From assembly GCA_019429425.1 (NCBI GenBank), contig JAHYIU010000002.1:185-64184 (forward strand): a DNA stretch of 64,000 bases, in the 5' to 3' direction. How positions within the stretch are numbered: the first letter of the stretch is position 1; each line of letters opens with the position of its first letter. A program made the position numbers and the translations under genes. The DNA is from Candidatus Syntrophosphaera sp. (GTDB taxonomy: Bacteria; Cloacimonadota; Cloacimonadia; Cloacimonadales; Cloacimonadaceae). Below, piece by piece: positions 1-45,904 of the stretch. Under the pieces are notes generated by a model, which was not told the origin of the DNA, made no database searches, and saw only the letters and a list, made by a program, of their open reading frames with translations.

Positions 1-72
1 CATTGGTCATACTCCTTACTATAGGTTTTTGGTCAACCTATTTCAGGACGGGTCACCCTCAGGCCTGGCTCT

Positions 73-167
73 TAATCACTTCTCTATCCACTGTCTATCA
101 CTTGTCTATTATAGACAAGTGATAGACAGTGGATAGTCAAGTGATAGACAGCGTGAAAAGAGGGCGG
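73..167. repeat. Hairpin repeat family 1, copy A (iteron-like palindrome plus GAGGGCGG clamp)
   Basis: Perfect 26-nt arms at 84-109 and 111-136 around a 1-nt centre (t110). An imperfect extension covers 73-83 / 137-147. GAGGGCGG lies at 160-167. Located ~100 nt downstream of the GH3 stop. Confidence 0.85.
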
Positions 168-269
168 AAAAAGAAAGGCCGGGGATTCCGCGGGCAAAGC
201 CTGCTTCGATCCCCAGCCATGTTGAATCAACTTGTCAGGCCGGGCTAACGATCTGGCCCAGAGCTCCGT

Positions 270-2192
270 TTACAGGTATTCCAATCCGTAGCCATAGGGG
301 AACATGGGGTGGTAGCCCGGATCGCCCAGATTCCAGTTCTCGTCGTCGTAGCGGGGCCAGGAAAAGCTCAGCTTGCCCTGCATCGGATAATCGCCGAAGA
401 GCACATCCGCCACGCCCTGTCCCTCTGAACCGGGGAACCAGGCGACCACGAAGGCCTTGGTTTCGGCCAATTCCTGTTCGATGACGAGGGGGCGCCCGCA
501 GATCATGACCGCGACCACGGGAATCCCTTTGGAAGTGATGTTCCGGATGGTGGCGATATCCTCGGGATGCAGCTCGTGCAGGTAGAGATGGGATCCGTAG
601 GGGCCTTTCTTCATGATGGGGATGTCTTCGCCGGGCAGGGTTTCGTCCGAGGTCGAGCCCGGGCCGATGTTCAAGCCCTTGGCCAGGCCTTCGACGCGGA
701 TGTCGCCGAGCATTTCGGCATAGGGGACTTCGCCGATGACCACGATGGCCAGATCGTGTTTGGAGGGATCGGCATCGGAGCCGTCACTGCTCAAAACGGC
801 GTTGGGCGCCAGGTTCCGGATCCCCTCCCAGACGGATGTTCCGCCGATGATGGCGGAGCCCCAGGAATCGGCGCTCTTGTCACTGGCGTCCCTGGGCTTT
901 TCTTTTTCGGCCTGATCATAGATCCCCGTTTCGATGGGAGCTTTGTCATTCACGCCCTGCCAGGCGACAGTGAATCCGCCGCACTGATGGCCCCGGTTGT
1001 GGGCGTTCTTTCCTGTGACCAGGATCCGGGCGTTTTTGTCCAGAGGCAGGATGTCGTCCTCGTTCTTGAGCATGACGAGGGATTTGCGGACCGCTTCGCG
1101 GGCGACCTCACGATGCTCGCGGGAACCGAAACTGGAGTGGTCCAGGGAAAGTTTCCTGAGGGCGGGACGGGGCTTGTCAAACATGCCGAAGGCGTATTTG
1201 ACGCGCAGGATCCGCCTGACGGCATCGTCCAAGCGTTCCTGGGGTATGCGGCCGTTGGCAATGTTGGTTTTGACGTGCGAGATGAATTCCTTCCATCTGG
1301 AGGTGACCATGAACATGTCCATTCCCGCGTTCAGGGACATGACCACCGCTTCGCCGTAATCTTCTGATAAATAGTCAATTCCATCCCAATCCGAGATCAC
1401 GAAGCCTTCGAAGCCCAGTTCCTTTTTCAGCAGATCGGTGAGCAGGAATTTGTGCCCGTGGCACTTCTGACCAAACCAGCTGCTGAGCGAAACCATGACG
1501 GTGAGGACGCCGGCCTTGATGGCGGCCCTATAGGGCGGAACGTGGATCTTCCGCAGTTCCTCTTCTGAGATGCACATGTCGCCCTGATCGATGCCGTGCA
1601 GCGTGGCGCCGTCGCCGACCCAGTGCTTGGCGCAGGCGATGACCTTGTCTTCACCAAAATCGCCCTGCAGGCCTTTGACAAATCTGGGTGCGTATTCCGC
1701 CACGATCTTCGGATCTTCGGAATAGCTTTCGTAGGTCCTGCCCCAATGGTCATTGCGGGCCACGGCCAGAGTTGGCGCAAAGGTCCATTCGACCCCGGTG
1801 GCGGTGATCTCTTTCGCTGTGGTGGCGGCGATCCGCTCGACCAGATCTGGATCATGGGCCGCGCCCAAACCTATGTTGTGGGGAAAAACCACGGCTCCGA
1901 GCACGTTGGTGTTGCCATGGATGGCGTCGACCCCATAGATCAGGGGTATGGGCAGATGATCCTCGTCTTCCTCCATGGAGGCGGCCCAATAGGCATCGTT
2001 CATCGCGATCCAATCTTCGGGTCTGTTTTCCCCGGGGACCGATCCGCCTCCGCTCAGGACAGAGCCAATGTGGTATTTCTTCACTTCCTCGGGTGTGATG
2101 AACTGGCGTTCCGGCTGGAGGATCTGGCCGATTTTTTGCTCCAGGGTCATTTTCGCCAATAGGGCGGAGACCTTTTCTTCGATCTGGTTCAT
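270..2192 (-). CDS. Glycoside hydrolase family 3 beta-glucosidase / exo-beta-glucanase, no signal peptide (cytoplasmic)
   Basis: 640-aa ORF. GH3 hallmarks GVDAIHGN and KHWVGDG, and nucleophile motif FVISDWDG. BglX-like N-terminus MTLEQKIGQ. Last gene of the minus-strand glucan operon. Confidence 0.9.
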   Translation of the reverse strand: MNQIEEKVSALLAKMTLEQKIGQILQPERQFITPEEVKKYHIGSVLSGGGSVPGENRPEDWIAMNDAYWAASMEEDEDHLPIPLIYGVDAIHGNTNVLGAVVFPHNIGLGAAHDPDLVERIAATTAKEITATGVEWTFAPTLAVARNDHWGRTYESYSEDPKIVAEYAPRFVKGLQGDFGEDKVIACAKHWVGDGATLHGIDQGDMCISEEELRKIHVPPYRAAIKAGVLTVMVSLSSWFGQKCHGHKFLLTDLLKKELGFEGFVISDWDGIDYLSEDYGEAVVMSLNAGMDMFMVTSRWKEFISHVKTNIANGRIPQERLDDAVRRILRVKYAFGMFDKPRPALRKLSLDHSSFGSREHREVAREAVRKSLVMLKNEDDILPLDKNARILVTGKNAHNRGHQCGGFTVAWQGVNDKAPIETGIYDQAEKEKPRDASDKSADSWGSAIIGGTSVWEGIRNLAPNAVLSSDGSDADPSKHDLAIVVIGEVPYAEMLGDIRVEGLAKGLNIGPGSTSDETLPGEDIPIMKKGPYGSHLYLHELHPEDIATIRNITSKGIPVVAVMICGRPLVIEQELAETKAFVVAWFPGSEGQGVADVLFGDYPMQGKLSFSWPRYDDENWNLGDPGYHPMFPYGYGLEYL

Positions 2193-2229
2193 GTTTGTTC
2201 TCCTATGTTTTCTTAAAATCTTATGCTAT

Positions 2230-5200
2230 CTAACGCAGTTCCACTGCTATGCTCAGGATCTCACGAGCACGGATCTGCCTGACAATCTCTCCGCTGAGGG
2301 CCGCTGTTTGAAACTCCCGCGAAATTCCCTGGAGGTCAAGCACTTTCCAACTGGCCGGGGAAACTGAATCAGGCCCGAAAGTGTCCTTGCGCGAGGGATT
2401 GAGGTAGGTCACCAGGATCTTCCCCAGGAACATGAAGCTGAAAGTATCGGCCTCAAACTGGACATCCTGCCATGCGTCTCCGATCAACAAACGGCTGCGC
2501 CTTGCTTCCGGGGTGAACAGCCAGCCGGGCAGGACAGGTTTGAGGTTAAGCCGCAATTCTCCCGCGGAGTCCAGTTCGAAAGGATTTTGCCCCACCGTCA
2601 TCAGGTGCAGGATATGGATGAATTCAGCCGTCGCCCCGCTCAGGCGGGCCACAAAGCCATTGCCGTGCAGCGAGGGATCGGGATTGGCGCTGCTGACGAT
2701 GAAGGAGGAATTTTCCAAGATGCTGCGGCCATAAACTTCGGGATCGAAGAAGGGAACGAACACCTGTTTGAAATCCCGGAAAAACTCAGCATGGAGCCCG
2801 TTGCGCAAGAGTTCCAGCATGTATTTGTATTCCATGTGCAGCCAGATCGATTCATTCTCAAACCAGCCGGGGGAAAAGGTTCTGGCCCGGCCGATCTCCA
2901 TGGGCTGGTCTGCCAGGGATTCATTGACCTTGTACATCTTGAGTTTGGCGTCATAGAGCCCGCTGTTCCTGACTCCAGCGGCAAGTTTTCGGGCCTCCTG
3001 GGGGTCCGATTGGGCGCGCAGGAAATGCACCGGACCCTCCAGAAAGAGGGGTAAGGGAACCTGGTTGAACTTTTTGGCCCGGAAGCAGGATAGGCCTTTG
3101 GCATTGCACTTGGCTTCCAAACTGCCGTCCCGGGAGGGTACGGTGATCTGATCATATTCCACGGCTTCGTTGATGAAATAAGTGGAAACCACATCGTTGT
3201 TCCAGGCCCTGGCTATGCCGGCGTCCAGTTTCTGCAGACTGGCTTGCAGAAAATCGATCAACTCGCTGAGCGTGATATTCTTTTCTTTTCCGCTGACTCC
3301 CAGCCTGGTTTTGGCCCGGTAGTTTTCCTTGAGCGCGGTGGCCCGGTCCCAAAACTCAAAGGCGGAAAGCCCGGATCCAAGCAGGCCGCTCAGAGTTGCG
3401 ATGAATTCATGCAATTCCTCATATACGGCAAACTCCAGGCCTTGATTGAAGAATCCGGCCAAGGTATCTAAAAGGAAGAGGATATGGCGTTTTAGCTCCA
3501 GGGTTTCGCAGAGGCTGGAACCGATCAGGCCGGGCATGCCGTTCAAGGCGTCGTACCAGCCGGGTTTGTCGGCCTCCATTTCCACTCCCACGCCTTCGGG
3601 ATCGAGAGAGGCGAGTTTGTTGGTGATCAGACTCAGCATCACCGTAAACAAGGTAGTTTTGTAGACCTCTCCTTGCCCGTATTGCATGCGGACCTTGTTT
3701 TGGTCGTGGCAGCGCTGGCTGATGAGCAGTTCTTTCTCTTTGTCAAGAACCACGGAATTCAATTGCATGGCCCGCCCCCCCCAGATGACGTATTTCTCGT
3801 CCCGGGGCTGGACCCGCTGCGGGTTGTCGTAAAATGTGAAAGTTTTGTTTTCGAACAGAATCTGCTTTTTTTGCTCAGGATAGACAGCCAGAAAGTTCTC
3901 CAGCAGGTCCAGGTTGTAGGTCCAGTGATCGATCCAGAACCCTTCGCCGGGCTCGGTGCCGTAATGCTTGGCGCTGATGCCCAACAGGTCGCCGATAAAG
4001 ATGTTCGCATCGCCCTTGATCGCGATCCCCCGGTCATGCAGGTGAAGCAGCAATTCGCCCGGTGTGTAGGTATCTTGAAGATAGGCCGCGACCTCTCCCA
4101 CCCTGCCGGGATCGAGATATTGGCCGAGGACCTCATCCAGCCTGGCGTGCTGGGAGATGCTAAAACGGCTCTCTTTGACGACCAAAGGATTGAAGCCATC
4201 GAGCTGGATCAGGCTGGCAAACTGGAGCACATTGCCCTCAGCCACCTGGGGGTTGAAAAACAGGTCGCAGCGCCGGTTCTGGTTCACATCCCGGAAATGC
4301 CCGTTACCTTGGGAATAGGGTGTGGGAGTAAGACGGTAGTCGTTGTAATCCCGTTCCAGGTCTCCATGCTTGCGGGAATAGAGATGAAGTACGGAAGAGC
4401 TTTCCCTTCCCTTCAGCGTGTGCGGGAATCCGCCCCGCATCACGTTATCCAAAAAATTCTGCCTTGCGTATTGATCCAAAACGAGTTCTGCACTGCAGAT
4501 GAAGTTCTTTTGGGTCAATGCCGAAACGATCTCCTGATTGGCAACAGCCTTTCTCTCAATGTATCCGTTGTGGACAATATTGGGGACCAGTTCATTCAAC
4601 TCACTGGCTGAACCGGCGTGGCCAATAACTGAGGTATAGGTGCATGTGCGATGCGTGGCTATGGTCGTCTCAAAAGATCCCATCGCGCAAGGCAGACGGT
4701 TCTCATAAATCTGTCCGGCAGCGAGTTCCTCGCTGGAACTGCTCAAAAATCTCTCAGGGTGGGCGTAATCGCCCCGGATGCCAAATATCTTCACGGGGTC
4801 ATAGATCGGATCGACCAGCTTGGAATCATCCATGAATCCAAGATAGAAATTGCCCTTTTTGATCCTGACCACGTCCGGACGGTCGGAGGGCTCGACTTTC
4901 AGCTTGTAGAAGGGAACCTTGTTTTCAAAGTTGGTGACCTCTACAAAGGCCTCGAACAGGCGCCGCATATGTTTGAGGCCATAGTCGTCCAGACCATAGG
5001 GCACTATTAAAGGAAGGCCGTCCAATACCTGCAGTCGTACCGGATCCGGGTTCAGGTTTTGGATCGTGAGCCTGCGCACGAGGCCGGCATAGTTTTCCTG
5101 CGGGATGTTGAAATACTCCACGCTGAATTTCAGACCCAGGGTTTTGTTCACTTCCTCAAGGGTCAGTTTGGCTGGGGCGATGATCATTCTTTGCGCTTTC

Positions 5201-5553
5201 TGGTACTGCTGATCATCGGCTTTGTTCTGAAACGGTTCGTAGAATCTGTTGGATGACTGGTCCACCAACTTGATAAAAGTCCTGAACCCCTGGGTGGATA
5301 CGAGATTATAAGCCCAGTTGGCGGGCAGGAATTCCATGATGGGATGATGTTTGCCTTCAATGCCCATGCTGCAGACGCATTGCCCGCGATTGACGTAAAA
5401 GGTCCACATGGGAATGCCGTTCTTTCCGGCAATGCCCGGGAAGAAACTGGAAAACAACTTGGCGGAGTTGTAATCCGTGATAATGAACTCACCGTTGTCA
5501 GTGAGCTGGTATTTGGCTTGGGGGCTTCGATCCAGCACTATTATGTTTCCCAA
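2230..5553 (-). CDS. Large cytoplasmic GH94/GH149/GH161-superfamily-like glycan phosphorylase (putative beta-1,3-oligoglucan phosphorylase)
   Basis: 1107-aa ORF without signal peptide; TTG start as given by the ORF track, so the start is uncertain. Segment GHFRDVNQNRRCD resembles the GFRDxNQD segment I recall from GH94-type phosphorylases. Size and beta-1,3-glucan context fit GH149/GH161. The family call is from memory, not a search. Confidence 0.55.
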   Translation of the reverse strand: MGNIIVLDRSPQAKYQLTDNGEFIITDYNSAKLFSSFFPGIAGKNGIPMWTFYVNRGQCVCSMGIEGKHHPIMEFLPANWAYNLVSTQGFRTFIKLVDQSSNRFYEPFQNKADDQQYQKAQRMIIAPAKLTLEEVNKTLGLKFSVEYFNIPQENYAGLVRRLTIQNLNPDPVRLQVLDGLPLIVPYGLDDYGLKHMRRLFEAFVEVTNFENKVPFYKLKVEPSDRPDVVRIKKGNFYLGFMDDSKLVDPIYDPVKIFGIRGDYAHPERFLSSSSEELAAGQIYENRLPCAMGSFETTIATHRTCTYTSVIGHAGSASELNELVPNIVHNGYIERKAVANQEIVSALTQKNFICSAELVLDQYARQNFLDNVMRGGFPHTLKGRESSSVLHLYSRKHGDLERDYNDYRLTPTPYSQGNGHFRDVNQNRRCDLFFNPQVAEGNVLQFASLIQLDGFNPLVVKESRFSISQHARLDEVLGQYLDPGRVGEVAAYLQDTYTPGELLLHLHDRGIAIKGDANIFIGDLLGISAKHYGTEPGEGFWIDHWTYNLDLLENFLAVYPEQKKQILFENKTFTFYDNPQRVQPRDEKYVIWGGRAMQLNSVVLDKEKELLISQRCHDQNKVRMQYGQGEVYKTTLFTVMLSLITNKLASLDPEGVGVEMEADKPGWYDALNGMPGLIGSSLCETLELKRHILFLLDTLAGFFNQGLEFAVYEELHEFIATLSGLLGSGLSAFEFWDRATALKENYRAKTRLGVSGKEKNITLSELIDFLQASLQKLDAGIARAWNNDVVSTYFINEAVEYDQITVPSRDGSLEAKCNAKGLSCFRAKKFNQVPLPLFLEGPVHFLRAQSDPQEARKLAAGVRNSGLYDAKLKMYKVNESLADQPMEIGRARTFSPGWFENESIWLHMEYKYMLELLRNGLHAEFFRDFKQVFVPFFDPEVYGRSILENSSFIVSSANPDPSLHGNGFVARLSGATAEFIHILHLMTVGQNPFELDSAGELRLNLKPVLPGWLFTPEARRSRLLIGDAWQDVQFEADTFSFMFLGKILVTYLNPSRKDTFGPDSVSPASWKVLDLQGISREFQTAALSGEIVRQIRAREILSIAVELR

Positions 5554-5578
5554 TTCTGTTCTGAGTTTGTTTTTAGAA

Positions 5579-5614
5579 AGATCAGCCGATACAATAATCC
5601 GTACCGGCTGATCT
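5579..5614. terminator. 10-bp hairpin downstream of the 941-aa CBM-protein gene
   Basis: AGATCAGCCG-16 nt-CGGCTGATCT. Related in sequence to 8515-8543. Could be a terminator, attenuator or RNA-processing site within the operon. Confidence 0.35.
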
Positions 5615-5702
5615 TCATGTTCATTTAAGCAGCGCCAGGCATTTGAGTTCAGACGCTTGGTCGCTGACTTTCATTTAATTATTAGCCGGGTTATCTGTGT
5701 TC

Positions 5703-8471
5703 CTAATTGGCATTTGCCGTCACATAGTAGAATCTGGCCGGTTCAGTGACAGAAGAGGACCAACTGGTCCCGTTGTAGGTTCCGTCAGCAACCGGAGCAT
5801 AGGTCCCGAAGGGATCTTGCGAGGCATACACCGTATAGGAAGTCGCGCCGGCAACGGGGTCCCAGGTGACCGTCACCGTATTCGCGGTCTCGGTTATGGT
5901 GACATTCGCGGGTATGTCGAGTCCCATGGCGTAGAAATAGAAGTTATCGATATACATGGTGCCCAGAGGGTCTTTGGACAGGATGTACTGCGCCATGTTT
6001 CCAGTGATGTTCAGACCGGTGAAAGCTGACAGGGGGATGTCGTAGGAGATCCAAGATCCCGTTTCGGGAGTTTCAAACATCAACTCATGTTCCGTGTCAT
6101 CACCACCGCTCCAGGCGCCGTCGGCACCCCAATCCACCAGCTTGAACCTGAAGTTGTTGGCATCGGGTGTCCAGAGGTCCAGATGCACGTGGGTCATGCC
6201 GGAAACATCGATCAGATTCGGTCCCACTGTTTCGATCCCGACAAAGTTCACCAGGGTGTACTTCTTGACCGGATTTCCCGCGACCACAACCTCTTCATAA
6301 ACTCCCTGCGACCAGGGGGTCAGCCAGGTATCGACAACTACATCGGTGTAGGCGTCGCTGAACAGGGAAATGACGTTAGCGGGGTTATGCGTCGGAACGG
6401 GCGGCACGGAATTGGGATAGGTGATCGCAAAGGCCACTGTGTAGGTTTTGGTGTTAATTCCATTCTGGGCTGTCACCAGCACGGAGGCGGTTCCGGGAAT
6501 GCCGGAAGCCTGGGTGATAACGTAGGTGGCATTGGGATCGGTGGTAGTGACTGAGGTGATCTGGGGAACGATCACGGTTCCTTCGAGCAGGCCGTAATTG
6601 TAGCCCTCGGTCAGGGGCGTGAAGCCGGCTAGCGTGGCTCCATCGACCTGCAGATCGCTCAGAGTGGCGTCCGTGCCCTGAGCAGTGGGGTTTTTCCAGA
6701 AGTAGAGGTTGTCAAACCATATATCCCCGTTCCCTTCCACCTTGAATTGGAAGACATTGGCCAGGTTGACCGGAGGAACAAAGTAGGAAAGGGGAATATC
6801 CACGCTGACCCAAGTGCCGGGAACGATCGTGAACACATACTCCGTCTCAGCGCCGGGGCTGATCAGATAGATGCCCAGGTCGGTGGAATTGACGGTCCAG
6901 AAATCCACGTGCAGATATTCGTAGGCCGAAACATCCTGAGGAGTGTATTCCGTTCCCTGGTAGTTGAGGTTTTGATAAAGCAGAGTGTTGTTGCCCGCTA
7001 TCACAACGTCAACGGTGACAATTGTCTGTTGGCCCCAATAGGGGTTGAAATTGGTGCCTGGCAGATTGGCGTAGGCATCGCTGTAGATGGATATGACATC
7101 CTCAGGTTCGTGGGTTGGAACGGGTGGAGCGTCAACAGGAGCGGTTTGGGTAACAAAGTTAACCGTATAGGTCAGGGAGGTGATTCCATCCTCAGCGGTC
7201 ACCACGACTGTTGCGGTTCCTGGAACTGCCGTGGCCTGGGTGATCACCATGGTGGCGTTGGGATCGTTTTTCGTGGCCGAGACGACCGGCGTTCTGGCCC
7301 CTGTAACCTGGTAAGTGTAATTGAAGGTAGCCGGGGAAAATCCCGGGATCGTGACATTGTCGACCCGCAGATCACTTAGAGTGGCGTCACTGCCGGCTGC
7401 TCCGGAATCATAAAAATAGACATTGTCCACATACACGGTGTTGGGGTCGCCGGAAATGATCAATTGGGCCAAATGTCCGGTGGTCGTCAGGTTGATGAAA
7501 TTCGCCAGGGGGATGTCGAAACTAATCCAGTTTTCGCTCACCAGGGGCGGGATTGAATCGGCATTGAAGCTAAGCTCATGCTCAACATCATCTCCGCCTC
7601 CCCAGACTCCATTGGCCCCAAAATCAACCAGTTTGATCCTGAAGGCCGCCGGCAGGGCAGTGGGATCCGGGGTCCAGATGTCCATGTGGAAATGGGTCAT
7701 GGCTGTGGCGTTGATGGTCTGGGAGGTGAATTCGATCCCTGCATAAACCAGATTGGTATAGAGCTTGGTGTCATTGCCCGCGATCTGGACATCAGCAACA
7801 TCCGCCATGTCCCAACCAGCAGACCAGGTGTCCACGGGAACATTGGTATAGGCGTTGCTGAACAGGGAGATCACGTTCGCGGGATCCACGGTTGGGGTTG
7901 GCGCTGCCACGGTCGGTTCCGTTGGAGGAGCCATGTTTCCCTCAGGGATGCGGATGTTGTCGAAGTAGATGATGTTATCCTGGTTTCTGGGCGCGAAATC
8001 CGGTATGATCACGATCCTGCTGTAAGTATTCCCAATGACAGCTGAAAAATCAAAGGTTAGTTCTTCCCATTGATTTACCAGGGTATTTGTAACTTGTAGT
8101 TCCAGTGGTGCGCTGCCACCCTCAAATTTTACCGCCACTGGGCTGATCACAGGTTTGTAGACCATGATCTTTACCAAGGCGTTGGACGCGTTGAACTGGA
8201 AGGTTTCGATATCGTCGGTAAAACACAGGGCCCAATCCATCCCTGCATCCAGGGCAGTGAATTGGGCTACCGTCGGCGTAGTGTTGATTCCGCCCATTAC
8301 AGGGTTGGCAGGAAAGGTTAGCGGAGGGTTGGCTCCGTTTTCTCCCACCACCCAATTCCAGTCGGCTCCCAGGCCGCCTGGCTCAAAATCAACTGTGATG
8401 TATTGTGCAAACATAATGGCTGTGAACGCCATCATGAAAATCACCAGCAAAAACAGTTTGTTAGCTCTCAT
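5703..8471 (-). CDS. Secreted multi-domain glycan-binding protein (four CBM-like beta-sandwich modules, two cadherin-like modules, C-terminal Fn3-like module)
   Basis: Start trimmed to MRANKLFLLVIFMMAFTAIMFAQ (signal peptide), preceded by AGGAGA. Three copies of a ~150-aa module (VISLFS/IYSDAYxxxP...DxWxP...YVDNxYF). Two ATLSDLxVD...FxP..xxY modules (cadherin-like). Ends in an Fn3-like ATSYTVYASQDP...RFYYVTANAN. Confidence 0.8.
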   Translation of the reverse strand: MRANKLFLLVIFMMAFTAIMFAQYITVDFEPGGLGADWNWVVGENGANPPLTFPANPVMGGINTTPTVAQFTALDAGMDWALCFTDDIETFQFNASNALVKIMVYKPVISPVAVKFEGGSAPLELQVTNTLVNQWEELTFDFSAVIGNTYSRIVIIPDFAPRNQDNIIYFDNIRIPEGNMAPPTEPTVAAPTPTVDPANVISLFSNAYTNVPVDTWSAGWDMADVADVQIAGNDTKLYTNLVYAGIEFTSQTINATAMTHFHMDIWTPDPTALPAAFRIKLVDFGANGVWGGGDDVEHELSFNADSIPPLVSENWISFDIPLANFINLTTTGHLAQLIISGDPNTVYVDNVYFYDSGAAGSDATLSDLRVDNVTIPGFSPATFNYTYQVTGARTPVVSATKNDPNATMVITQATAVPGTATVVVTAEDGITSLTYTVNFVTQTAPVDAPPVPTHEPEDVISIYSDAYANLPGTNFNPYWGQQTIVTVDVVIAGNNTLLYQNLNYQGTEYTPQDVSAYEYLHVDFWTVNSTDLGIYLISPGAETEYVFTIVPGTWVSVDIPLSYFVPPVNLANVFQFKVEGNGDIWFDNLYFWKNPTAQGTDATLSDLQVDGATLAGFTPLTEGYNYGLLEGTVIVPQITSVTTTDPNATYVITQASGIPGTASVLVTAQNGINTKTYTVAFAITYPNSVPPVPTHNPANVISLFSDAYTDVVVDTWLTPWSQGVYEEVVVAGNPVKKYTLVNFVGIETVGPNLIDVSGMTHVHLDLWTPDANNFRFKLVDWGADGAWSGGDDTEHELMFETPETGSWISYDIPLSAFTGLNITGNMAQYILSKDPLGTMYIDNFYFYAMGLDIPANVTITETANTVTVTWDPVAGATSYTVYASQDPFGTYAPVADGTYNGTSWSSSVTEPARFYYVTANAN

Positions 8472-8514
8472 TTTTCTCTCCTTGCTTAAGTCAGATAGTT
8501 GTTGTTTTTCAAAG

Positions 8515-8543
8515 TCAGCCGGCACCAAAACGGTGCCGGCTGA
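8515..8543. terminator. Perfect 12-bp GC-rich hairpin between the two CBM-protein paralogs
   Basis: TCAGCCGGCACC-aaaac-GGTGCCGGCTGA. T-rich on the plus-strand 3' side and A-rich on the minus-strand 3' side, so it is not a canonical minus-strand terminator. Shares CCGGCTGATCTT with the hairpin at 5579-5614. Confidence 0.4.
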
Positions 8544-8555
8544 TCTTTATGATTA

Positions 8556-45582: not shown

Positions 45583-45782
45583 ATCAATCTCAGCCGGTTC
45601 AATTTGGCAGGCCGATTGCCAAGTAGGATTGGAAAACCCATCCAGAGCCTGACCACACCCGCTGGCCAGAACCATATACTTCACTGCTGTACAGTGACAT
45701 AGATACAATAGTGATTAACGATACTCACGCTATCGAGGTATCTCCAAGCCAGCCATAGATTTACACCGTCCACACTCCTGTC

Positions 45783-45873
45783 GCCCTCCTTATCAATACG
45801 GTGTCAATACGGACTCATTACGGACAAAGTCCGTAGTGAGTCCGTAATGATAGCGTATTGATAAGGGGGGCCA
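45783..45873. repeat. Hairpin repeat family 2, copy A
   Basis: CGCCCTCC (45783-45790) abuts a 38-nt arm (45789-45826). The arm contains the 11-nt units TCAATACGGTG/TCAATACGGAC/TCATTACGGAC. Centre AAA, then a 38-nt arm (45830-45867; 33/38 paired), then GGGGGGCC. It lies between the convergent ends of the membrane-protein gene and phoU. Confidence 0.85.
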
Positions 45874-45904
45874 CCCCTCTCAGATTCCTATCGGTAAAGG
45901 GACC

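What the first reader, a model, noticed from the sequence alone, without database searches (positions are those of the whole stretch)
44..170. A second copy of the family-1 hairpin lies just outside the other end of the glucan locus, so the locus is bracketed by direct repeats
**Copy A (73-167)**
- It shares the 53-nt core palindrome with copy B (27614-27728).
- It shares the right-hand tail GTGAAAAGAGGGCGGA in the same orientation.
- Its outer stem extension is degenerate (7 of 11 positions pair), and its left clamp reads CACCCTC.
- The single central nucleotide is T in copy A and A in copy B.

**Position of the pair**
- The two copies sit ~100 nt beyond the GH3 stop (270) and ~75 nt beyond the stop of the last plus-strand gene (27541).
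- The whole 27-kb utilization locus, and nothing else, lies between direct repeats.

**Inference**
- The locus may be an exchangeable or excisable module, or the hairpins may act as bidirectional operon-boundary elements.
- No integrase or transposase is present in the window.
Basis: partly seen in the sequence, partly recalled or inferred. Interest (0 to 1): 0.65.

Follow-up and report, generated by a model that had tools for sequence, protein, structure and literature searches.

The report
Dispersed modular palindromes flank a glucan locus
The two hairpins at the ends of the beta-glucan locus are real, but they are copies of a dispersed palindromic repeat family of Cloacimonadota that settles in gaps between genes, and they did not deliver or delimit the locus.

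Summary
**Observation.** Confirmed. Two ~117-nt near-perfect palindromes lie just outside the two divergent operons of a 27-kb beta-glucan locus. They are 52/72-168 and 27613-27729, 93% identical, with an identical 53-nt core.

**What they are.**
- They belong to a superfamily of modular palindromes found in Cloacimonadaceae.
- Each has a C-rich clamp, then 3-4 units of 11 nt that usually start NNTCA, a 1-3 nt centre, and the mirror image.
- A second family has two copies in the window. Related copies occur at unrelated sites in four other genomes.
- Two metagenomes hold copies with different flanks, and homology stops exactly at the element ends.

**Relatives.**
- They carry the same locus without these hairpins.
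- One has the locus directly next to comM. One has a 13-kb block in between.
- Two species have an "empty" LTD-comM junction with 15-22 nt between the genes and no hairpin.
- One has the GH3 end abutting a comM 3' remnant.

**Verdict.**
- The locus is an accessory, rearrangement-prone block at a comM-adjacent hot spot.
- The family-1 hairpins are later insertions of a repeat element, and the bracketing is most likely incidental.
- "Direct" orientation rests on only a few bases, because the element is its own reverse complement.
- The hairpins lack terminator features.
- The mechanism of spread is inferred to be MITE/REPIN-like and is not shown.

The parts
52..168 (.). Family-1 palindromic element, copy A. 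Bases 72-168 are well conserved and the core is 84-136. The left outer arm and clamp (GTCACCCTC) are degenerate.
   Evidence: D10, I6; -71 kcal/mol, z = -12.6.
27613..27729 (.). Family-1 palindromic element, copy B. It is 117 nt: clamp TCCGCCCTC/GAGGGCGGA, 4 x 11-nt units per arm and a 1-nt centre.
   Evidence: I4; -86.5 kcal/mol, z = -17.3. In run X2, homology to copies with other flanks ends exactly at 27613 and 27729.
169..218 (-). Terminator-like stem (GGCUGGGGAU...AUCCCCGGCC) and U-run of the GH3 operon. It lies immediately upstream, in the sense of transcription, of copy A.
   Evidence: fold of 170-270 on the minus strand. The consensus scan missed it; I attribute this to its loop exceeding the scan's 8-nt limit.
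270..16951 (-). Minus-strand glucan operon: GH16, MFS_2, GH30, GH17-like, a T9SS-tailed protein, two large proteins without Pfam hits, and GH3.
17208..18314 (+). GntR-HTH / LacI-type sugar-binding regulator.
18467..27541 (+). Plus-strand glucan operon: a 1046-aa protein, a 206-aa protein, a GH16-like T9SS protein, a GH2-like protein and a T9SS-tailed protein.
27890..29431 (+). comM/yifB Mg-chelatase-like ATPase, the conserved right flank. The promoter region from about 27770 onward is conserved with L003.
1..46 (-). Start, ribosome-binding site (AAGGAG) and promoter-like site of an unidentified minus-strand gene that leaves the window (left flank).
   Evidence: A contig in run X1 is identical over 1-55 and then diverges.
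45780..45874 (.). Family-2 element, copy 1 (95 nt, 3 units per arm). It lies between the convergent EamA and phoU genes.
   Evidence: (D9, I5).
57795..57889 (.). Family-2 element, copy 2. It lies in the divergent promoter region between a STAND/TPR-cyclase gene and a [FeFe]-hydrogenase gene.

Best explanation
**What the elements are**
- Copies A and B are two members of a lineage-specific superfamily of non-coding, modular palindromic repeat elements in Cloacimonadaceae.
- Each element has a C-rich clamp, then three or four 11-nt units that nearly always begin NNTCA, a 1-3 nt centre, and the exact mirror image.
- The result is a 95- or 117-nt hairpin or cruciform.

**How they behave**
- Families differ in the unit sequence, but both arms of an element always carry the same family.
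- The elements behave as insertions. They are absent from the corresponding gaps in close relatives, present at unrelated sites elsewhere, and multi-copy in metagenomes.
- The most likely mechanism (inferred, not shown) is that they are non-autonomous mobile elements of the MITE/REPIN kind. An unidentified protein encoded elsewhere would move them, and the phased units would be its binding sites.
- They persist in permissive non-coding DNA such as operon ends and island junctions.

**The bracketing**
- The glucan locus is an old accessory block at a comM-adjacent hot spot, and it predates these insertions.
- Two same-family copies at its ends is best read as incidental. Local spread may help, because the two family-2 copies are also neighbours, 12 kb apart.
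- Any effect on RNA 3'-end stability, or on recombination between the copies, would be secondary.
For: **Discrete, dispersed elements**
- Run X2 holds family-1 copies whose homology stops exactly at 27613 and 27729, with unrelated flanks. Run X1 holds another flank and a 61-nt variant.
- Family 2 shows four different left flanks in X1 and X2. Core word depth is 32-70, against about 3 for the flanks.

**Superfamily**
- In a centred register, all families share the clamp and the 11-nt phase of NNTCA.
- 22 of the 36 inner pair positions carry at least 2 different canonical pair types across the compared copies. The symmetry is kept while the sequence changes.
- Related copies are at L097:21402-21518 (117 nt, same clamp, different units), L094:12712-12806, L090:11826-11920 and L006:7149-7196.
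- About 1.2 Mb of loci from other phyla, scanned with the stricter early scans, gave almost none.

**Insertion polymorphism**
- L090 has the same last gene followed by comM across 117 nt with no hairpin.
- L093 (GH3 93% identical) has no hairpin after GH3.
- L003 lacks the family-2 copy between EamA and phoU.

**Locus independent of the hairpins**
- The locus is present without them in L090, L095, L094 and L101. The empty LTD-comM junction has no hairpin.
- GC content does not step at the hairpins.

**Position in the window**
- 4 of the 12 intergenic gaps longer than 100 nt hold a hairpin (gap count made by hand from the ORF list).
Against: - No transposase, RAYT or other candidate partner protein was found. 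Only 64 kb of this genome is available.
- No target-site duplication or precise empty site could be shown.
- Family 1 seems low-copy: about 2-3 times flank depth in X2. Two copies 27.5 kb apart, exactly at the locus ends, is then somewhat unlikely by pure chance.
- Hairpins or other small repeats recur at synteny breakpoints around this locus. Examples are L094 at the GH3 side, the MITE-like repeat at the start of the L086 contig, and the X1 contig that diverges at the left end of copy A. This fits a causal role in rearrangement as well as passive accumulation.
- An assembly chimera through the shared palindromic core at copy A cannot be excluded.
Confidence: 0.6

Rival explanations
1. **Portable recombination sites.** The two same-family palindromes act as homologous or site-specific recombination substrates. 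Because each copy is its own reverse complement, a pair can delete, invert or exchange the intervening glucan module.
For: - The pair shares a 53-nt identical core, and the bracketing is exact.
- The locus is present, absent or differently oriented next to comM among relatives.
- Synteny with X1 breaks at the left edge of copy A. Synteny with L003 breaks around copy B.
- L094 has a superfamily hairpin at its GH3-side border.
Against: - No recombinase is present in the window.
- The empty site has 15-22 nt between the genes and no hairpin.
- Occupied sites in L090 and L095 have no hairpin at the comM side, and L093 and L101 have none at the GH3 side.
- Other copies sit singly at unrelated sites.
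- No read data were available to look for junctions.
Confidence: 0.12
2. **Operon-boundary RNA elements.** When transcribed at the 3' ends of the two divergent operons, the very stable hairpins block 3'-5' exonucleases or read-through. This is the role described for REP sequences (own knowledge), and it would insulate the locus from its neighbours.
For: - Three of the four window copies lie 31-102 nt beyond the stop of the last gene of a transcription unit: GH3, the last plus-strand gene and phoU.
- Folding energies are -63 to -87 kcal/mol, with z-scores of -10 to -17.
Against: - No U-tract follows any copy, on either strand. Flanks tend to be T-rich before the element and A-rich after it, the reverse of terminator polarity.
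- GH3 already has a terminator-like stem and U-run upstream of copy A.
- One copy lies in a divergent promoter region.
- Orthologous operon ends in relatives lack the elements.
- No RNA data could be obtained.
Confidence: 0.13
3. **Protein-binding arrays on duplex DNA.** The phased NNTCA units, three to four direct and then three to four inverted at about one helical turn, form sites for a regulator, a partition-like protein or a nucleoid protein. Family 1 would then be linked to control of the glucan locus.
For: - The 11-nt phase and the TCA triplet are conserved across families while the rest varies.
- The centre of family 1, TTGTCTAT-N-ATAGACAA, loosely resembles the TGCTATATAGCA-type palindromes in the locus promoters.
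Against: - Exact family-1 motifs are absent from the promoter regions of the locus.
- Copies are missing in relatives that keep the locus and its operator-like sites.
- Other copies sit next to unrelated genes.
Confidence: 0.08

Closest known systems
REPINs (REP doublets forming hairpins, mobilised by RAYT transposases; PMC3116915, PMC3337134)
   Same: - Both are extragenic, non-coding and about 100 nt long.
- The whole element folds into a hairpin.
- Several sequence groups coexist in one genome, without hybrid elements.
- Both are multi-copy.
   Different: - There is no 20-40-nt REP unit with a GTAG or CGTC tag at the ends (tags as defined in PMC3733652).
- There is no conserved-end plus variable-spacer layout.
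- The arms are arrays of 11-nt tandem units under a C-rich clamp.
- Flanks are T-rich at the 5' side and A-rich at the 3' side, the reverse of what is described for the GI REPINs.
- No RAYT gene was seen, and this could not be tested genome-wide.
Bacterial MITEs such as Correia and ERIC elements
   Same: - They are small and non-coding.
- They have terminal inverted repeats and insertion polymorphism between relatives.
- They are intergenic and often lie near operon ends.
   Different: - Here the inverted repeat is the whole element and has internal tandem periodicity.
- No target-site duplication was seen.
- No parent insertion sequence with matching ends was seen.
(The properties of Correia and ERIC elements are taken from my own knowledge.)
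pdif modules and integron cassettes (modules bounded by recombination sites)
   Different: - No Xer-type or attC-type consensus is present.
- No recombinase gene is nearby.
- The empty site carries no copy.
- Copies occur singly elsewhere.
(The properties of pdif modules and attC sites are taken from my own knowledge.)
Iteron or centromere-like arrays (for example 11-bp repeats bound by ParR or by rolling-circle Rep proteins)
   Same: Both have short repeats phased at about one helical turn, arranged in direct and inverted sets.
   Different: - The elements here are dispersed and multi-copy on a chromosome.
- They are perfect dyads.
- No associated par or rep gene was seen.
This is a resemblance from my own knowledge only.

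Membership tests
REP / REPIN | Extragenic, dispersed and multi-copy | tested here: met
   - The window holds four copies in two families.
- X1 and X2 hold copies with other flanks and excess core depth.
- Relatives hold copies at other sites.
REP / REPIN | A 20-40-nt imperfect palindromic REP unit with a GTAG or CGTC tag at one end (PMC3733652) | tested here: not met
   The ends read TCCGCCCTC or TCGCCCTCC. No GTAG or CGTC lies at either terminus in any family.
REP / REPIN | Two inverted REPs separated by a less conserved spacer, with the whole element forming a hairpin | tested here: inconclusive
   The whole element forms a hairpin. There is no separate REP and spacer; the arms are 11-nt unit arrays.
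REP / REPIN | A cognate RAYT (Y1/HUH transposase) gene in the genome | not testable with these tools
   Only 64 kb of this genome is available. The window holds none.
MITE | Terminal inverted repeats, small size and no coding capacity | tested here: met
MITE | Insertion polymorphism (the element is absent from the corresponding gaps in relatives) | tested here: met
   The element is absent at L090 (comM side), L093 (GH3 side) and L003 (EamA-phoU gap). The flanks are too diverged to give a base-precise empty site.
MITE | Target-site duplication | tested here: inconclusive
   No duplication is visible at A, at B, or at the X2 flanks. No precise empty site was available for comparison.
MITE | An autonomous parent element with the same ends | not testable with these tools
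   None is present in the window. The Tn7/Mu-like end repeats in L090 (GACCACTGTGACA) are unrelated.
Intrinsic (bidirectional) terminator | A G+C-rich stem followed directly by a U-tract | tested here: not met
   The consensus scans found none. The flanks have the opposite polarity, T-rich before and A-rich after.
Recombination-site-bounded module (att, attC, dif-like) | A recombinase nearby, and a single site left at the empty locus | tested here: not met
   No recombinase domains are present. The empty LTD-comM junction has 15-22 nt between the genes and no hairpin.
Any Rfam RNA family | A score at or above the family's gathering threshold | tested here: not met
   The whole window gave no hit. 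The only sub-threshold hits are generic microRNA-precursor hairpin models, on both strands.

The most novel reading that the evidence does not exclude
- The modular palindromes are the cis-sites of an undescribed mobility or recombination system in Cloacimonadota.
- The family-specific 11-nt unit acts as the recognition code for a cognate protein, for example a Y1/HUH or DDE enzyme.
- Same-family pairs serve as portable sites that flip, delete or swap accessory loci, such as this glucan locus at the comM hot spot.
Probability: 0.12. Interest if true: 0.7.

Novelty: new variant of a known kind. Interest (0 to 1): 0.35.

Why it matters
- The result warns against reading a repeat pair as module boundaries when the repeat is a dispersed palindrome.
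- It describes an apparently unreported repeat architecture in an uncultured phylum: clamp, phased 11-nt units and a perfect dyad, with 95- and 117-nt size classes.
- Such elements break assemblies, mark synteny breakpoints and may shape genome plasticity around polysaccharide-utilisation loci.
- The coexistence of several families with unmixed arms suggests cognate proteins worth finding.

Tried and rejected
**Searches that found nothing useful**
- A 20-mer of the family-1 core found nothing in the species-representative genomes.
- The same 20-mer found only two unrelated non-palindromic hits in JGI metagenomes.
- The family-2 core found nothing in viral contigs.
- The hairpin found nothing in plasmids or phages.
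- Exact-protein look-ups of window proteins failed.
- The comM-based scan of genome contigs returned mostly distant phyla, with a best hit of 77%.

**Read-level tests**
- A junction test was impossible. Only fragmentary Logan contigs exist (X1, X2).
- The raw-read runs X3 and X4 laid nothing at 1% sampling, and no RNA runs were listed.

**Method problems**
- My first two palindrome scans required a perfect centre and missed decayed copies. A relaxed scan found them.
- The repeat finder with a small max_distance returned nothing.

**Ideas rejected**
- The family-2-like hairpins upstream of STAND/TPR genes in the window and in L090 are not orthologous. The proteins are only 35% identical and the flanks are unrelated.
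- The locus is not compositionally foreign within boundaries set by the hairpins. GC is lower only in its centre.
- The DnaA-box, IHF, omega-heptad, Xer/dif, attC, protelomerase-site and retron resemblances I considered from memory do not fit the sequences or the multi-copy distribution.

Full report
**1.
- Reading the sequence and the repeat finder (D10) confirm two copies, at 72-168 and 27633-27729. They are 93% identical over 97 nt.
- Copy B is a 117-nt near-perfect palindrome, 27613-27729, closed by TCCGCCCTC/GAGGGCGGA (I4).
- The 22-nt core occurs only in these two elements. Shuffles expect 0.00 matches.
- As RNA the elements fold at -86.5 kcal/mol (B) and -71.1 kcal/mol (A), with z-scores of -17 and -13.
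- The stops of GH3 (270) and of the last plus-strand gene (27541) lie 102 and 72 nt away.
- Pfam annotation shows a coherent beta-glucan locus between the copies:
  - a minus-strand operon with GH16, MFS_2, GH30, a GH17-like protein, T9SS-tailed proteins and GH3;
  - a GntR/LacI-type regulator;
  - a plus-strand operon with GH16-like, GH2-like and T9SS-tailed proteins.
- No recombinase or transposase domain appears in any major ORF of the window.

**2. "Direct" orientation is weak**
- The element is its own reverse complement. Reverse-complemented A aligns to B with score 78, against 84 for the direct alignment.
- The repeat finder also reports the pair as an inverted repeat at 90% (I2).
- Only the right-hand tail favours the direct reading.
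- Copy A's left arm is degenerate: 46 of 58 positions pair, against 51 of 58 in B.

**3. The hairpins belong to a superfamily**
- A second family has two copies in the window, 92% identical to each other:
  - 45780-45874, between the convergent EamA and phoU genes;
  - 57795-57889, in a divergent promoter region between a STAND/TPR-cyclase gene and a [FeFe]-hydrogenase gene.
- Placed in a register centred on the dyad, families 1 and 2 share one plan:
  - a C-rich clamp;
  - three units (95-nt elements) or four units (117-nt elements) of 11 nt, nearly all starting NNTCA (TATCA, AATCA, TGTCA, GGTCA);
  - a 1-3-nt centre;
  - the mirror image.
- 22 of the 36 inner pair positions carry at least two different canonical pair types across the compared copies. 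The dyad symmetry is preserved while the unit sequence changes.
- A relaxed palindrome scan found relatives in other Cloacimonadaceae contigs:
  - L097:21402-21518, 117 nt, the same TCCGCCCTC clamp, units AATCAAGCCTT;
  - L094:12712-12806;
  - L090:11826-11920, decayed and nested in a MITE-like element with 40-nt inverted repeats;
  - L006:7149-7196.
- That is four copies in about 191 kb of non-redundant relatives, against four in the 64-kb window.
- About 1.2 Mb of loci from other phyla, scanned with the stricter early scans, gave almost nothing comparable.
- Rfam has no matching family at gathering score. Sub-threshold hits are generic microRNA-precursor hairpin models only.
- Plasmid and phage collections have no match.

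**4. They behave as discrete, dispersed, multi-copy insertions**
- Logan contigs of two metagenome runs hold family-1 copies in other contexts.
- In X2, homology stops exactly at 27613 and 27729. The flanks there are CAAGTTCGCTGGCAGTTTCATTTTCCCCCT before the element and GAGAAAAAATTCAGG after it.
- X1 holds another left flank and a 61-nt variant in which one unit is replaced on both arms.
- Family 2 shows four different left flanks in X1 and X2. Core word depth is 32-70, against about 3 for the flank contigs.
- Family 1 looks low-copy, with core depth about 2-3 times flank depth.
- Flanks tend to be T-rich with CCCT before the element and A-rich after it. This is the opposite of terminator polarity.

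**5. What relatives show about the locus**
- comM homologues place the window in Cloacimonadota/Cloacimonadaceae.
- Right end of the locus:
  - L090/L091 (comM 89% identical) carry the plus-strand half of the locus. Its last gene is followed by comM after 117 nt, with no hairpin.
  - L095/L003 (comM 91%) carry the locus in the same orientation, with a 13-kb six-gene block before comM and no hairpin.
- Left end of the locus:
  - L093 (GH3 93%) has an ordinary GC hairpin, then an alpha/beta-hydrolase gene.
  - L094 (GH3 89%) has a 914-nt gap full of nested inverted repeats plus a family-2-like hairpin. The LTD, phosphorylase and AMP-binding genes follow.
  - L101-L103 (GH3 86%) have a comM 3' remnant of roughly 55-63 codons directly after GH3, then PHO4.
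- Empty state:
  - L097-L099 and L100 (comM 88-89%) have AMP-binding, phosphorylase and LTD followed by comM, with only 15-22 nt between LTD and comM. There is no locus and no hairpin.
  - The LTD proteins of L094 and L097 are 64% identical.
- Taken together, the locus is an accessory block that is present, absent or differently arranged beside comM. This conclusion is a composite across genomes, because no single relative was seen at both ends.
- Its history does not involve family-1 hairpins.
- GC content is lower only in the middle of the locus and does not step at the hairpins.

**6. Function**
- A terminator role is not supported.
  - No U-tract follows any copy, and the consensus scans found none.
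  - The GH3 transcript has its own stem and U-run at 169-218, immediately before copy A.
  - One family-2 copy lies in a promoter region.
- A role in mRNA 3'-end protection is possible but untested. No RNA runs could be listed.
- My best explanation is a MITE/REPIN-like non-autonomous element whose phased units bind a trans-acting protein.
  - Shown: the insertion behaviour, the multi-copy state and the family structure.
  - Inferred: the mobility mechanism and the partner protein.
- Same-family neighbours (family 1 at 27.5 kb, family 2 at 12 kb) hint at local spread.
- The 53-nt identical core could support rare RecA-mediated deletion or inversion (own knowledge). No data were available to test this.

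**7. Chance and caveats**
- 4 of the 12 intergenic gaps longer than 100 nt in the window carry a hairpin (gap count made by hand from the ORF list).
- Flanking a recognisable gene block is therefore not a rare outcome. The low copy number of family 1 still makes the exact pairing mildly unexpected.
- Small repeats recur at synteny breakpoints here:
  - the X1 contig is identical to 1-55 and then diverges at the left edge of copy A;
  - the L086 contigs begin inside a MITE-like repeat upstream of comM;
  - L094 has repeats at its GH3 border.
- This fits either passive accumulation or a causal role in rearrangement.
- An assembly chimera through the palindromic core at copy A cannot be excluded with the data at hand.

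**8. Comparison with known systems**
- The closest known kinds are REPINs (PMC3116915, PMC3337134) and bacterial MITEs.
- The defining REP features, a tagged 20-40-nt unit (PMC3733652) and a RAYT gene, are not met or not testable.
- I therefore do not file the elements as REPINs. They are a new variant of dispersed palindromic repeats.

**Verdict**
- The finding is real as an observation.
- The module idea is right only in the weak sense that the locus is an accessory block.
- The hairpins are most likely bystanders.

Noticed in passing
window 45780-45874 and 57795-57889: A second palindrome family (95 nt, units TRTCAWTACGG) has the same architecture as family 1. It is multi-copy in X1 and X2, with core depth 32-70 against about 3 for the flanks.
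   Followed up: yes
L097:21402-21518; L094:12712-12806; L090:11826-11920; L006:7149-7196: Members of the superfamily occur in other Cloacimonadaceae genomes. The L097 copy is exactly 117 nt, has the TCCGCCCTC clamp and carries different units (AATCAAGCCTT).
   Followed up: partly
L090:11728-12040; L091 and L092 equivalents; L086-L089:18-29: A separate MITE-like element has 40-nt terminal inverted repeats (CTGTCATCCCGG...). In L090 it encloses the decayed hairpin downstream of comM. The same repeat end lies at the starts of the closest relative's contigs upstream of comM.
   Followed up: partly
L097:8339-11542, L100:8297-11542 against L094:10001-14489: Two species have LTD directly abutting comM. 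In L094 the GH3 end of the glucan locus abuts LTD. This implies an indel of the whole locus between conserved flanks.
   Followed up: partly
L101:11923-12149 (also L102 and L103): A comM 3' remnant of roughly 55-63 codons lies immediately after GH3 on the same strand. The locus is therefore arranged the other way round relative to comM in that genome, and comM is truncated there.
   Followed up: partly
L090:1-660: A Mu/Tn7-type transposase gene (Mu-transpos_C) lies where the regulator and minus-strand operon would be, just upstream of the plus-strand operon promoter. It is accompanied by repeated GACCACTGTGACA sites in direct and inverted sets.
   Followed up: partly
window 17013-17024, 17153-17168, 18414-18427; L090:759-771: Palindromes of the type TGCTATATAGCA / TTGCTNNATAGCA lie in the promoter regions of both glucan operons and are conserved in L090. 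They are probably operators of the GntR/LacI-type regulator.
   Followed up: no
window 1-55: A 959-nt contig in run X1 is identical to window 1-55 and then continues TCCGGGTAACTGATTATATATCTATCTGA. This sequence is not in the window. It marks a polymorphism, or an assembly alternative, exactly at the left edge of copy A.
   Followed up: partly
window 15686-16076 and 23358-23748: A 391-nt inverted repeat at 74% identity lies between the GH16 gene of the minus-strand operon and the GH16-like T9SS gene of the plus-strand operon. These are diverged paralogues on opposite strands within the locus.
   Followed up: no
window 29467-42314: About 13 kb of minus-strand genes separates comM from the FG-GAP gene, including very large repeat-rich proteins of 1573 and 1113 aa. 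L003 has only two genes at this position, so this is another variable block.
   Followed up: no
window 57403-58027 and L090:11543-12427: In both genomes a family-2-type hairpin lies about 400-500 nt upstream of a STAND (AAA_16-TPR, cyclase-like) gene. The proteins are only 35% identical and the flanks are unrelated.
   Followed up: yes
L001:1214-1233 and L002:4308-4327: The family-1 20-mer also occurs, not as a palindrome, in two homologous metagenome contigs (ACTGTCTATCACTTGTCTATCACCCC). The meaning is unknown.
   Followed up: no
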